This document shows, piece after piece, positions 5,174 through 63,890 of a DNA stretch of 64,000 nt. This DNA comes from Eledone cirrhosa (taxonomy: Eukaryota), in assembly GCA_964016885.1 (NCBI GenBank), contig OZ024747.1, positions 16,678,001 to 16,742,000 on the forward strand, written 5' to 3'. Each line of letters starts with the position of its first letter. Within the stretch, counting starts at the first letter, position 1. The notes beneath the pieces are model-generated. The model worked only from the letters and a program-made list of their open reading frames with translations, was not told the origin of the DNA and made no database searches. Made by a program: the position numbers and the translations under genes.

Positions 5174-5251
5174 ACTTCCTGAAGAGTCCGGTGCTCTAGG
5201 TGTCCGATGCTATCGGATATCTTAAAATGCGGACGAAACCATGGTAGAGGT
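5174..5251 (+). ncRNA. Type I hammerhead ribozyme (canonical core)
   Basis: ACUUC-CUGAAGA-GUCCG...CGGAC-GAAAC-CAUG-GUA-GAGGU. Stem I ACUUC/GAGGU, stem II GUCCG/CGGAC, palindromic stem III ACCAUGGU, extra hairpin inside loop II. Confidence 0.85.
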
Positions 5252-5574
5252 CACTAAATATGTTCACATTTCTCCTAGTTTATTTTACACCTAATTCTGG
5301 TTAGTTGACTGTATATCTGAGCGATTCATACAAGCTGTCGAAATACTCGATAAATACTCCGTCGCAGCCGGCGCGAAGGGCTGATTCGGTTATTTGTCGG
5401 AGATTTCTTCATAGAAGCCTTTATTCTTATAGCTTGGTCTAATCGAATTTTTATATGGTTAATTATGCTAATTGGGAGAGGAAATGGTATATATTTTATC
5501 TGGTGATTCTATAGACATGTTTTACGATATATATACATATATATATATATACATACATATATAGAGATAGCAGA

Positions 5575-5780
5575 TGAACTATTAGAATGATAGAGGGGAA
5601 ACCAAGACAGCACAGAAGAAACAGAGGGTGGCCAAGGGCTTGAACATGCGATAATCTAAACCGATACCTCGGTCCCACATGGCCCAATAAGATCAACGAC
5701 AGGAAGCAGTAGAGGTCAAGCTGGCAGGGGTTCATCTAACAAGAAGGGGGAAGCCCTGGAATTTGGAATTGGATTTTGGA
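5575..5780 (+). mobile_element. Decayed RTE-type LINE 3' end
   Basis: Degenerate G..RGRP..W....DR..WR-like coding remnant followed by a short (TGGAAT)-like tail. Confidence 0.45.
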
Positions 5781-5837
5781 TATACATTTGATAAAGCTAT
5801 ATATTATATATTCCATGTTTACATACCTACATATTGG

Positions 5838-5990
5838 ATACGATTTTAGTACTTAAATATTTCATTATTTTATCAATCCCCCACTAGAATGAAAGGCAAA
5901 TTTGACCTTACCAGGATTTAAACTCAGAGCGTAACGGACCGTAATTAGATACTATAATAATTGTGTCCGATGCTGCAACAATTCTCTCGA
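5838..5990 (-). mobile_element. Degenerate tRNA-derived SINE
   Basis: Reverse complement of the SINE core (GAATGAAAGGCAAATTTGACCT...GGATTTAAACTCAGA). Confidence 0.6.
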
Positions 5991-59289: not shown

Positions 59290-59420
59290 TCTTTCAAAAT
59301 ATATCACGGATTGGAATTGCTGTATTAGCTTCTGGGTCTTTACATATTGTATTCAAATTCCGCCAATGTAAATTTGACTTCTTACTTTCCGGTTGTGAAG
59401 TACTGGGGTTGATGTAAGGA
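59290..59420 (+). mobile_element. Highly degenerate SINE
   Basis: TTCAAATTCCGCCAATGTAAATTTGACTT...GTACTGGGGTTGATG resembles the SINE B box and core. Confidence 0.45.
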
Positions 59421-62400
59421 AATTTGCTCTTCGCCAGATTTGTTGGACGTTTGATGAAATTTAAAATTCTTACATTACAACTATTTATATATCTTCTTAC
59501 TGAAGTAGACCTACGATTGTGTAGATTATACATGGGTTTTAAATTGAAAGCACGAGGTTCTTTCAATCATAGCCATCAACATATGTTAATGTTTACAAGT
59601 GAAACATACCAAATTGTGCTTCTCTAAATACACATTACAAAGAAATCATTCCTGGTTATGATTCAGGCAATGTAAATTAACGGGTAATAATTTCCAGCAA
59701 CCATAATGAGATGATGAATTAATGGAAAACAAACCAGTATATCAAAAAACAATACAGATAAAGAACTGAACAAATTAATTGTACTGCAGAAGAAGTCAAT
59801 ATAAGTTTAACATTCCAAACACGAAATGGAAACGTAATTAAAAACAAATTCTGCCATTCAGTGATTTCAACAGGTAACAAATGTTTGCTACCATGAAACC
59901 AGAACTAGCTACAGTTATTATATATATATATATATATTTATATATATATATATGTGTGTGTGTGTGCGTGTGCGTATGCCTGTGCGTGTGTGTGCGGGTG
60001 TGTGTGTGTGTGTGCGCGTGTGTATGTGGGTGTGTGTGTGTGTGTGTATGTGCGCGTGTGTGTAATAACTCTTTCACAATTTAAAATTTCTTACAAACTT
60101 ACAAATCCTGAATTTGCGCATATTCAATGTCAACATATTTGCATGTAATAAATACATGGACATGGAAATGCTATTTATTTTTTCGAGGAAAGTTTCGTAT
60201 TCCCTCACGTTACAATCAGATACACACTATTAAGTATTTTTTCAGTGTGTATTCTTATATATTCAACAACATGGAAATAGAATTTACGTTTACAATCTAC
60301 AATATATATATATATGTATATATATATATTTATATATATATTATATTAAATATATATATATATTATATATATATTATATATATATATTTATATATATATA
60401 TTATATATATATATATATATATATATATATATATATATATATATATGTGTATACGCATGTGAATATATTTGTGTATTGCTATGTGCCTCTATATATACAC
60501 ATATATATTGTATGTGTGTGTAAGCGTGTCATTGTATGAACATCAAACTAATGTGTCGATAGTAAATATACGTTATCACATATATTCATCTTAAACACAC
60601 TAGTCTTAAAATTTAATGTCTTAGAACTTACTGTTACTGCAACATTAATCTCTTCGTGCTACGCTGTGTCTACAGAGCAAATAAAACTGAATTCTTAAGA
60701 ATTAGAAGTTAGAAGAATCTGCTTCTCCCAAGAAACAACACGTAAAATAGAAATTTGTTTTCTTCAGTATAGATTATATATTCATGATGTCTATGTTTCA
60801 CAGATAAATAGTACTTGTTTCTATATGATCCAGTATTATCTCCTAAAACATCTTCAACAGCGTTATAAAAACGTTTTGTTAAAACATCACAAAATATAGT
60901 TGTATATCATTCAATTGAAATTCTTCTTTGGTCTTTTTGTTATCAAAAAACAGTTTATATTGGCTTCTGGGATATTATTCACATAAAAATAGCGAAACAT
61001 ATTTCAACACATTATGCATGCTAAATAAGTACACGATATATATATATATATATATATATATATATATATATATATATATATATATATATGTGTGTGTGTG
61101 TGTGTATATATACTCCCCTATATGTAAACAAACAAAGACTCATTTACATATATACACATGTGAGTATTTACAGATGCCAACGATACATGTGATTGAATAT
61201 TATTGCACACAATATACTCTTAGTTAATGTCTAAAGCGCGCTAATCTACGTAAAACCTTTCTTCATATATTGCCATTATTAAAATTGATGGCTTTATTGC
61301 ATGCTGTCACCAAAAGTGTGTTCAACCATTCTATCACCAGGTCTCCGTCACTACAACTGTCACAAAACCTGTCACATATGATATCTCAGCGTTTCTCCTC
61401 CGGAATAAAATCATGCGCACTTTCGGGATTTCTTCCATCATTCCTTTAAACACAGCCTATTGGTTTACGGACATTTTCAACCCACCAATCCTACATTACA
61501 GAGATCTAATATTTGCTCCCTTTTCCAATGAACAGTCAGCATGTTTGACAAATTCATTTGCACTTTCATCAACTGACTTCAATATTCTCGATTTATCCTC
61601 ATCTCTGCTTTAGGCAGAATGCTTGTCGAATAGCAGATCGAATCACAGAACACCTCCACGACGAGACCCGTCACGATCATCCTTTTCCCATCCCAAGCTA
61701 TTCTCACTTTTCCTGTCATAACACTTAAATGTACTCGGATTCACATTACACCACAGCTCAACCAGCTCAGCTTTTCACCGAGAGCAATAACATTTTTATG
61801 AATCAAACTGTTACACTTCACAGGCACAGTGTGTCAGATTGAGTCAGGGTAAATGATGACTGTCTGTGGGTTTGAATGAAATTTGACATAACATATGTGT
61901 ATAAAAGTAAAAAGAAAAATTAAAATATAATATATGTGTATAGCATAACAATAGTTTCTGTAACAATCCTGCTCATAACTGTGATATTATGCAATTGTTT
62001 AACTAATCAAAACTGGCCTTAAAGAGTTATGTTAAGTTATAATCAGAACAGTGCATTTAATATCCATACTTACCGTAATTTCAACAACATTGTTACCATA
62101 AGATCTCGATAATAATTAAAGATTAACAAGGATATAAATAAATAAATGTACACTAAAATCGAGTAAGGGAGAAATGAACGTATTGGAAGAAGTGAGAAAG
62201 AGATATGTGCAGTATGATGGATTGGTAAGACAGAATATATTGTAAATGCACCAATTATTGTTTCTATAATAAAGGACCAGCACATTTGCGGATATAAAAT
62301 GAAATAAATCAGTATATTAATGCCTACTTGAAGAGCAACTGTAGAAGCTTCATGTACTGATGAATTATTTAGGCTAAATATCGAAATCGTTTACCGGATT

Positions 62401-63670
62401 ATGTCGTATGTCTCCTTAACCATTTGGCCAATGCTGGGTGAAAATTTAAATCTCAAGTGTTGAACAGATATTCATGCTATCTCCTTTAAATGCTAAATAT
62501 AAGGAACAGCAAATAGTAAGAATATGACTCTTTCAGTAGTACCTTTTGTGTTGTTTGCCTATCTGGTAATTTGGAAATGTAAAAATAGTTAAAGGACAGC
62601 ATGGGTAATCAAGAAAATTGTGCCCAGAATTATCAACGTATATTTTGGATGTTTCGATATTTAATTGTTATCCAAGTATACTTGATTGTTAAGAGCAAAC
62701 CCTTACATATTTCTAAATAGCTATTGCAATTTTAAAAGCAACCGCTCTAAGCAGCACCAAACGATAGCTTCATTACGCAACAATGTACTGTAAATATAAA
62801 GGGACATAATCGCCATTTCTGCTCCAACACTAAGACAGATTATGAAGCGAACTAAATAATATGAAAATTACTTCCATTCACTGCATGACGCTATAGCAAA
62901 GATTGGCTTCTACCCAATTTAGACATTTATAAATACTGTCTCTTCTAATGTAGATTCGTGCTCAAGAAAAATCTTCGCACATACAGAATAGTTAGTATAA
63001 ATAGATACGAAATTGCAAGCAAATTATTACACTTACCGAAAATAGATCTAAACGTATTCAGCCAATATTGACATATGATACGCATCCGAAAACTGTGACA
63101 GAATATATCACTTGAAAGGATTTTACGCATCTGCCGTTGAAATACAATACTCACAGAAAATAATTCGCAAACTATCAATAAAACTACCAGTTACATCTCT
63201 GTTTAATAATGTCTGTCCACAAGTAAAACTTTAATTTGTTTTTACTTATATTTCTTAATACGGACGATATTTACTTGACGTGTATTTGGACAGGCGGGTT
63301 GTTATTTGATATATGTGAAATAGCTAGCTAAATATATGCACAGTGCAAACATTGAACGTATACATCAATTAAAATACAACGATGCAAGATAATCTAGACT
63401 GGAATAGTAATCACGGGTAATATACATATATATCTAAACAAGAGTATGTATATATGCTTCGTTTTAAGATAAGGTATAATCATATATATATACGTGTGAT
63501 TGAATATTCAAAGATGCACATAAACGCACACATACATTACACACACTAAAGCATATACACACATTCAGACACACGCATACTCATACACGCACATATATAT
63601 ATATATATATATACACACACACAAATACATACACACTCACATATATATATATATATATATATATATATAT

Positions 63671-63890
63671 AACGAAGGGAATGTGGTAAGGAACCAGGTG
63701 GACCATAACGCACCAAAGTACTCAATACTTGAGGTAGTAGAGTGGGTAATAGGAACCAGTAAGACCCCGACAGCTGAGCTCAAGCCGTTTCGACGGCTAA
63801 TTCATAAAGCTCAAGCCGTTTCGACGGCTAATTCAGAATTAGCCGTCGAAACGGCTTGAGCTCAGCTGTCGGGGTCCTACTCGTTCCTAT
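63671..63890 (-). mobile_element. Extremely 5'-truncated fold-back copy of the 8885-12757 PLE
   Basis: 63671-63803 nearly identical to 8884-9016, then a 27-bp local duplication, then an inverted arm 63836-63890 ending at TTCCTAT. Confidence 0.92.

What the first reader, a model, noticed from the sequence alone, without database searches (positions are those of the whole stretch)
5174..63890. One architecture across many unrelated families: fold-back hammerhead cassettes targeted to (TA)n
Seen in sequence: elements at 8885-12757, 13320-13605, 16362-17189, 17243-17676, 27837-28254, 41001-41300, 41988-43010 and 63671-63890 (probably also 18288-18665, 19620-21670 and 57634-57989) all read [inverted arm]-[variable turn]-[arm]-[unpaired tail of about 60-110 bp] inside microsatellites. 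The arms contain a full or half hammerhead, although the families share little primary sequence. Established: PLE pseudo-LTRs carry hammerheads, can be inverted, and leave a short 3' tail. Inference: here the system works at very high density (about ten intact-looking ribozyme folds in 64 kb), and mostly as tiny non-coding palindromes with a ribozyme on each strand, probably mobilised by PLE RT/GIY-YIG proteins like the one at 10179-12332.
Basis: partly seen in the sequence, partly recalled or inferred. Interest (0 to 1): 0.85.

Follow-up and report, generated by a model that had tools for sequence, protein, structure and literature searches.

The report
Two-armed Penelope insertions in TA repeats
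These hairpin-shaped inserts are real, shortened copies of Penelope-like jumping genes laid down in a head-to-head pattern already described for that class; sampled copies carry a tail on one arm only and many arms stop at one fixed base with an extra G, which likely means that both cut ends of the target DNA were extended on the element's RNA up to its capped start.

Summary
The architecture is real: inverted arm, variable turn, arm and one-sided tail of about 60-100 bp inside (TA)n. Nine type I hammerhead folds pass a descriptor (chance 0.36). But only two of the eight main elements pass on both strands, three hold half a ribozyme or none, and most small copies are not a separate non-coding system: families A, C and D are the truncated 3' ends of coding Penelope-like elements (C with full Hydra-clade motifs). 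Only 41988-43010 is a non-coding retrozyme-type tandem. Inverted copy, tail, TA bias and opposite-strand hammerhead pairs are all in print, and this scan noted the pattern before in this and other genomes. What the genome adds: 69 of 74 unselected fold-backs have one tail and none has two; the inverted arm ends at a fixed site, usually an internal TA patch; either arm may be longer; three copies join arms of different subfamilies; and arms pile up at one base preceded by an untemplated G (82%, 49%, 31% in three families, 20% expected). Best reading: both target ends prime, at two paired RNA sites, and run to a capped 5' end. No RNA data were available.

The parts
5170..5255 (+). Solitary type I hammerhead fold (core 5179, predicted cut after 5246, palindromic stem III); no inverted arm nearby
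   Evidence: one 76% relative in fetched loci
8885..12757 (-). Family C long copy: tail 8885-8961, tailed arm, ORF, turn at 12399/12400, inverted arm 12400-12757; main arm is 5'-truncated
   Evidence: contigs of other copies continue past 12400
10179..12332 (-). RT plus C-terminal GIY-YIG ORF with Hydra-clade motifs (RWR, DKT, CxCx5C, CxxC, CxH, no CCHH); one in-frame stop at 11424-11426
   Evidence: motifs from PMC8557442 section 11
8972..9072 (-). Family C hammerhead with U3-A8 core covariation (core 9065, predicted cut after 8982)
   Evidence: U3-A8 variant described in PMC4209133
13320..13605 (-). Family D mini: tail about 100 nt on the left, arms 13432-13601, 3' half of the ribozyme only; (CT)n then (TA)n at the inverted-arm end
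   Evidence: linked to coding copies L158, L159, L162
16360..17189 (-). Family E: tail 16360-16427, arms 16428-16509 and 17108-17189; inverted arm longer (to about 16810); microsatellite at the turn resembles the family's own UTR; core 17129(+) passes, 16488(-) has a stem III mismatch
17243..17676 (+). Family A mini: arms 17252-17578, both ribozymes pass, tail to 17676; turn at the family's 5' hot spot (first base 17416, preceded by an extra G at 17415)
18288..18665 (+). Degraded family G copy: short arms, ribozyme core lost; tail not verified
19620..21670 (-). Family H fold-back: 870-bp arms 19675-20543/20813-21666, GIY-YIG C-terminus with CX4CxxC linker and CCHH (Neptune/Nematis type, not Hydra); inverted arm ends at an internal (TA)6
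27837..28254 (+). Second family A mini (another subfamily, 93% to 17243), asymmetric turn, both ribozymes pass
41001..41300 (+). Family B mini: arms 41002-41229, tail about 70 nt; inverted-arm ribozyme passes (41083-), tailed-arm core has a C3 change
41988..43010 (+). Family F: non-coding tandem monomer of about 435 bp with one hammerhead (core 42695) and an internal microsatellite, about 1.2 monomers per arm, 60-bp tail; retrozyme type
43111..44586 (+). Decayed RT/GIY-YIG fragment related to family H (72% DNA identity)
57634..57989 (.). Family-C-like tail (57635-57699) beside an old 70% palindrome without ribozyme core; same architecture not confirmed
63672..63890 (-). Family C mini: tail 63672-63751, arms 63752-63887, half ribozyme; the two arms differ at two linked subfamily sites (chimeric)

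Best explanation
These are insertions of several families of endonuclease-bearing Penelope-like retroelements (family C carries all tested Hydra-clade protein motifs), and each hairpin is likely built at insertion, when both cut ends of a (TA)n target prime reverse transcription on the element's RNA and the two cDNAs are joined head to head. Shown: one arm always starts at the end of the tail and the other at a second fixed site 60-100 nt upstream, mostly at an internal TA patch; the turn differs from copy to copy; either arm can be the longer one. Inferred: the enzyme nicks both strands of the self-complementary repeat, one end primes at each site, usually on one RNA or on RNAs of one source and occasionally on two different ones, and end joining closes the turn with 1-6 bp of microhomology or a few added bases. 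Many arms run off a capped 5' end inside the 3' UTR repeat (an internal promoter), either the leader of a tandem mRNA or a short read-out of a terminal repeat; this makes the tiny copies. The ribozyme is carried along, mostly uncut, and is whole, half or absent according to where the arm stops. Non-coding retrozyme tandems (family F) borrow the same machinery.
For: Architecture genome-wide: an inverted arm within the 1.5-kb flank in 96 of 150 tail-picked loci, both arms under 300 nt in 88. One-tail rule: in copies picked by a turn-side pattern, not by tail, 69 of 74 have one tailed arm, none two; 4 of the 5 scored as tail-less show a tail with an internal deletion. Fixed second site: 53 of 62 (A), 43 of 44 (C), 6 of 7 (D) head-to-head pairs at one offset; it coincides with the longest TA run of the region in A, C, D and at one of two modes in E, not in B. 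Inverted arm longer by over 20 nt in 17 copies, tailed arm in 10 (read). Arms share subfamily sites (A 43 discordant vs 311 expected; C 6 vs 53; E 1 vs 17) yet L198, L072 and the window copy at 63672 join two subfamilies. 5' pile-up: 29 of 53 family A arms end at one of two adjacent bases; short-read contigs show repeated joints to 17416. Extra G: whole-genome counts of the base after the hot spot, C vs A/T in cDNA sense, are 2143 vs 2191 (A), 1878 vs 420 (E), 668 vs 1521 (C), 20% expected; in tail-picked loci 14 of 19 at hot spots vs 17 of 85 elsewhere (p 1e-5). Coding links. Literature: both strands nicked and extended, two internal start sites flanking the tail, ribozyme dispensable in vitro (PMC11167929); promoter inside the pseudo-LTR (PMC2377424); extra G marks capping in L1 inserts (PMC11702581).
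Against: No RNA holder was listed, so start site, cap and cleavage are untested. The extra-G signal is weak in family C (31%) and was not tested in B, D, F or H, whose 5' ends are more spread. By eye the C could come from the partner arm in 12 of 30 family A and 9 of 20 family E junctions. The hot spots in the 14-of-19 test were chosen after seeing those loci. An RT that adds C at any template end would give the same mark without a cap. The TA patch at the second site contrasts with the homology-free initiation reported for PAc and is absent in B. Subfamily concordance could reflect subfamilies active at different times, and the three chimeras could be later gene conversion. B and E were tied to an ORF in one locus each, across kilobases of repeats: not established.
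Confidence: 0.72

Rival explanations
1. The small palindromes are self-propagating non-autonomous cassettes: a whole hairpin is transcribed and copied as one unit by a PLE protein in trans, and turns vary through later central deletions.
For: 88 of 150 tail-picked loci are tiny two-armed copies. Family F and a 311-bp array (L155) are non-coding and must move in trans. One family A haplotype (7 arms) had no long copy in the sample. B and E lack an established ORF link. Some turns recur (the symmetric CATATG join in 6 of 30 loci).
Against: The extra G sits at the turn, where a whole-hairpin RNA has no end. Most turns carry their own inserts or overlaps. Seven of eight common A haplotypes occur in long copies; about 45% of A arms that reach the hot spot read on (extrapolated from 21 of 30 loci) and 19 of the first 100 matches pair up 0.7-4.7 kb apart. 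No A-to-G hypermutated arm among 606.
Confidence: 0.12
2. One cDNA is made from the tail, folds back on itself and copies its own strand, producing the inverted arm.
For: Arms of one copy are closer than arms of different copies (1.9-4.1% vs 2.8-5.4%) and share 21 private variants over 96 copies; it would explain one tail per insertion.
Against: Self-copying cannot make the inverted arm reach further 5' than the tailed arm, seen in 17 copies, unless the centre was deleted later; it cannot give arms of two subfamilies (3 copies) or an extra G on the inverted arm and on both arms (L028, L080, L105).
Confidence: 0.1
3. Ordinary MITEs or assembly chimeras.
For: Short palindromes in TA; long inverted repeats are prone to misassembly.
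Against: Ends are asymmetric and turns variable; long copies encode RT, not transposase; arms differ by 2-4%; joints between opposite strands or to 17416 occur in short-read contigs of another sample (X4) and another organism (X5).
Confidence: 0.03

Closest known systems
Hydra clade of C-terminal EN+ Penelope-like elements (Craig et al. 2021, PMC8557442; abstract, introduction, passages and section 11 read; supplements not read)
   Same: RWR/RWK, DKT, CxCx5C linker, CxxC and CxH, no CCHH, C-terminal GIY-YIG, hammerheads, insertion into (TA)n; molluscs among hosts. The paper draws the inverted 5'-truncated copy and one-sided tail for PLEs in general.
   Different: Tails here are 60-100 nt, not 30-40; family C is over 3.4 kb (theirs generally under 3 kb); thousands of copies per family; the paper gives no counts of tails per insertion or 5' pile-ups in the parts read.
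PAc Poseidon element in vitro (Frangieh et al. 2024, PMC11167929; parts 1-2 of 4 read)
   Same: Both strands cut and extended, two internal RT start sites bracketing the tail, AT-rich target, uncut RNA as template, predicted dimer.
   Different: They saw no strand difference in start site and no homology to the target; here the two sites are paired one per end and the upstream site mostly has TA microhomology.
Minimal PLE hammerheads (Cervera and de la Pena 2014, PMC4209133; parts 1-2 of 4 read)
   Same: Type I, palindromic stem III, extra base before stem II, U3-A8 variant, thousands per genome, and dual motifs 100-700 bp apart on opposite strands ascribed to truncated PLEs.
   Different: Counts there were 2,000-9,000 per genome; here one family alone has 11,320 arms with an exact 20-mer.
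Adineta vaga Penelope insertions (Arkhipova et al. 2013, PMC3846280; parts 1-2 of 5 read) and D. virilis Penelope promoter (PMC2377424; passages read)
   Same: Inverted pLTR shorter than the direct one, tail on one side, Inr-like start and promoter inside the pLTR.
   Different: Few copies, visible target duplications; no cap mark at arm ends reported in the parts read.
Metazoan non-LTR retrozymes (PMC7229834, passages read; Li et al. 2026, 10.64898/2026.07.22.740005, part 1 of 5 read)
   Same: Family F: tandem monomer of about 435 bp, one type I hammerhead, no ORF; proposed PLE origin.
   Different: Here the tandems carry the PLE insertion signature itself (inverted arm, one tail, TA-patch end); circular RNA untested.
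L1 twin priming (PMC11702581, passages read)
   Same: Second target end primes a second cDNA; internal junction closed by end joining; extra G from the cap.
   Different: Twin priming inverts a non-overlapping upstream piece (recalled); here both arms copy the same stretch from fixed sites.

Membership tests
EN+ Penelope-like elements | Single ORF with RT and GIY-YIG endonuclease | tested here: met
   C: window 10179-12332 and open frame in L160; D: L159, L162; A: GIY-YIG end in L151 and 17 of 30 loci L208-L237; H: Pfam GIY-YIG and RVT_1
EN+ Penelope-like elements | Pseudo-LTR direct or inverted, with one-sided tail | tested here: met
   partial tandem plus inverted copy in L159
EN+ Penelope-like elements | Type I hammerhead in the terminal repeat | tested here: met
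   A, B, C, E pass the descriptor; D has a deviant core; activity not tested
EN+ Penelope-like elements | Target-site duplication | tested here: inconclusive
   cannot be read inside (TA)n flanks
EN+ Penelope-like elements (families B and E) | Continuity of the small copies with a coding element | tested here: inconclusive
   one locus each (L154, L155), separated from the ORF by kilobases of repeats
Hydra clade (family C) | RWK motif, DKT for DKG, CxCx5C linker, CxxC and CxH, no CCHH, C-terminal EN | tested here: met
   alignment A1 against section 11 of PMC8557442; RWR in place of RWK
Hydra clade (family C) | Insertion into (TA)n | tested here: met
   30 of 30 tail ends, 24 of 24 inverted-arm ends
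Hydra clade (family C) | Placement in the Hydra clade on an RT tree | not tested
Non-LTR retrozyme (family F) | Tandem monomers of 150-450 bp, type I hammerhead, no ORF | tested here: met
   435-bp monomer, longest stop-free frame 74 codons, multi-monomer copies
Non-LTR retrozyme (family F) | Expressed as linear and circular monomer RNA | not testable with these tools
   no RNA run listed (searched with family A)
MITE | Symmetric fixed terminal inverted repeats, fixed length, transposase partner | tested here: not met
   one-sided tail, variable turn, RT partner

The most novel reading that the evidence does not exclude
Penelope-like elements insert by an obligately asymmetric double priming: the two ends of one cut start at two different fixed RNA sites, one each, and both run to the cap of a transcript begun inside the terminal repeat. 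That would be the missing route by which pseudo-LTRs and their promoter are regenerated, and every mini copy that reaches the start site would be an outward-firing two-way promoter with a ribozyme in each transcript, scattered by the tens of thousands through TA repeats; retrozyme tandems use the same route.
Probability: 0.4. Interest if true: 0.62.

Novelty: new member of a known kind. Interest (0 to 1): 0.4.

Why it matters
The elements and their layout are known. The value is that thousands of young copies act as a record of an insertion mechanism that has one in vitro study: they show strict pairing of the two start sites, point to exact RNA start positions, and tie retrozymes to the same machinery. 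These give base-level predictions for a question the field calls open (how inverted and tandem PLE structures form, and what the ribozyme does). For annotation, such palindromes would be misfiled as MITEs or miRNA hairpins.

Tried and rejected
Rfam scan: the 150 matches shown were microsatellite-driven miRNA models, none a hammerhead. A strict descriptor found only 5 sites; allowing a first-pair mismatch or bulge in stem II and covariant cores gave 10, so the descriptor was relaxed after seeing the sequences. Folding energy of six ribozyme segments was not significant (z -0.2 to -1.8); the hammerhead case rests on motif, pairing and covariation. Pfam found nothing in the family C protein. RNA evidence: no RNA holder listed; no evidence either way. 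ADAR-type hypermutation: 0 of 606 arms. Arms ending at the ribozyme cut: 5 of 211 within 1 nt (3 in family A, where stem I microhomology may explain them): rejected as the cause of the 5' pile-up. The first reference-picking script was misled by microsatellites; references were then chosen by hand. A full-length 5' end for family C was not found: the window copy is truncated. Read depths were not used as copy numbers. Literature searches for a cap mark or tail-count rule in PLEs found none; older subscription papers and all supplements were not seen and may hold such data.
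Full report
Setting. The window lies in a 3.0-Gb animal assembly (G000). It is 34% G+C and rich in microsatellites. I label families by letter: A (17243, 27837), B (41001), C (8885, 63672), D (13320), E (16362), F (41988), G (18288), H (19620).

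Observation. Self-comparison confirms inverted arms at all eight main places and at 19620, each with an unpaired end and TA flanks. A type I hammerhead descriptor gives 10 sites against 0.36 in shuffled sequence; nine are in elements. Both arms pass only in the two A copies; C long, E, B and F pass on one arm; D and the C mini lack the core. G is degraded; 57634-57989 is not confirmed. The ribozymes are genuine motifs: anchored on stem III alone, stem I shows two-sided changes in E-like and F-like relatives, and family C has the U3-A8 core variant described in PMC4209133. In 963 kb of fetched loci there are 258 distinct folds against 2-5 in shuffles, in some 30 stem I types; about 78 belong to families I did not search for, so high density is not peculiar to this window, though the sample is centred on TA clusters.

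Genome-wide anatomy. Tail searches gave 30 loci each for A, B, C, E, D (40 scored of 106 to 1137 candidates, best matches first, the window's own copy included for B-E). An inverted arm lay within the flank in 25, 16, 24, 19 and 12 of 30; both arms were under 300 nt in 88 of 150. Long copies whose arm lies beyond 1.5 kb count as misses. The tail end is fixed; the inverted arm ends at a second fixed site; the turn varies, with overlaps of 1-6 bp, blunt joins or short inserts. In copies picked by a turn-side pattern (37 of 75, 20 of 25 and 17 of 30 loci formed distinct head-to-head pairs), 69 of 74 have one tail, none two. The second site falls on the longest TA run between ribozyme and tail end in A, C and D, at one of two modes in E, and on a 2-base match in B; H ends at an internal (TA)6.

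Coding parents. L151 joins the A tail through 1.2 kb to a GIY-YIG C-terminus, and 17 of 30 further loci carry that DNA (paired loci share an insertion). C is coding in the window (one stop) and in L160; D in L158, L159, L162. The C protein has the Hydra motifs of PMC8557442 section 11; its relatives are 38-54% identical and nearly all unnamed; no tree was built. H has a CX4CxxC linker and CCHH residues, so a second clade uses the same layout. B and E remain unlinked. F is a 435-bp non-coding tandem, and L155 holds a 311-bp hammerhead array with the same inverted arm, a 36-bp tail and a TA-patch end.

How the hairpin forms. The inverted arm is the longer by over 20 nt in 17 copies and the shorter in 10, which a snap-back of one cDNA cannot give without later deletion. 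Arms mostly share subfamily sites but three copies join two subfamilies (two of the 19 A sites are flank artefacts that inflate discordance). PAc cuts and extends both strands and starts at two sites flanking the tail (PMC11167929). Together these favour priming from both target ends, one site each, then end joining. Whether one RNA is copied twice or two RNAs are used is open.

Why so many are tiny. 29 of 53 A arms end at one of two adjacent bases; E ends cluster at the first bases of stem I and C at 132-142 nt from the end. Exact counts for A: 11,320 arms reach the site; 4,334 diverge at the next base, and of 6,986 with the genomic base 21 of 30 sampled read on, so roughly 55% stop there. 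The next cDNA base is C in 49% (A), 82% (E) and 31% (C) of diverging arms against 20%. Five of 10 sampled E arms with A/T were mutated long copies, which strengthens E; 12 of 30 and 9 of 20 C cases could come from the partner arm, which weakens A and E. In tail-picked loci G precedes 14 of 19 hot-spot arms and 17 of 85 others. An extra G marks capping in L1 inserts (PMC11702581) and the Penelope promoter lies in the pseudo-LTR (PMC2377424); each site is an A after C, as in initiators (recalled). I infer a capped start inside the repeat. Short-read contigs show repeated joints to 17416 in X1, one in another sample (X4), and a contig of another organism (X5) aligning from there; X1 may be the assembly's own sample. 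Seven of eight common A haplotypes occur both in stopped and in long arms, so the minis follow their coding parents.

Ribozyme. 196 of 211 arms extend 5' of the predicted cut: templates were uncut or rejoined, as in vitro for PAc. In C the pile-up lies inside the ribozyme, which explains half hammerheads. Activity is untested.

Novelty. The inverted copy, the tail, the TA bias, palindromic minimal hammerheads and opposite-strand pairs 100-700 bp apart are in print. Ten searches found no report of the one-tail count, the TA patch or a cap mark in PLEs; subscription papers and supplements were not seen. Earlier notes of this scan reach similar readings on other DNA; my cap idea was noted before I looked, and those notes are not independent support. 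Verdict: new families of a known kind, with useful mechanistic marks; interest 0.4.

Noticed in passing
L031-L060 tail ends; window 13604-13722; L125, L159, L245, L253: The element's last dinucleotide is often repeated at the junction: (AC)k before (AT)n in 26 of 30 family B tails, (GA)n at some D and E inverted-arm ends. Could be slippage at priming, telomerase-like, or inherited flanks.
   Followed up: partly
L175, L178, L179: Turns with tandem copies of the last 8 bases of the arm, each ending in the extra C, as if the RT re-copied the RNA 5' end.
   Followed up: no
L155:2945-5567: 311-bp hammerhead tandem, about 3 and 5 monomers in the two arms, 36-bp tail.
   Followed up: partly
L157-L159 (family D ribozyme): Family D core reads CCGUCGA, two changes from the conserved core, in several copies; possibly inactive or a variant.
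   Followed up: no
window 57231-57498: A palindrome with a family-C-like half-ribozyme mini nested at its centre; similar nesting in several loci.
   Followed up: no
window 19381-19562 and 34727-35142: Further old palindromes without ribozyme core; little or no match in fetched loci.
   Followed up: partly
window 41472-41652: 76% relative of family D without inverted arm; 27124-27170 and 63949-63997 are further C-like fragments.
   Followed up: no
window 8244-8420, 15881-16075, 22273-22684, 24245-24537, 37322-37538, 46491-47066, 56273-56728: An abundant SINE-like repeat, in tandem at 22296 and 46491 and folded back at 56491-56665.
   Followed up: no
window 17691-18146, 28908-29037, 29248-29613: Fragments of a LINE-like element; copies in L101 also form a fold-back.
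   Followed up: no
L007, L005: Three family A arms begin exactly at the predicted ribozyme cut; stem I microhomology could equally explain them.
   Followed up: partly
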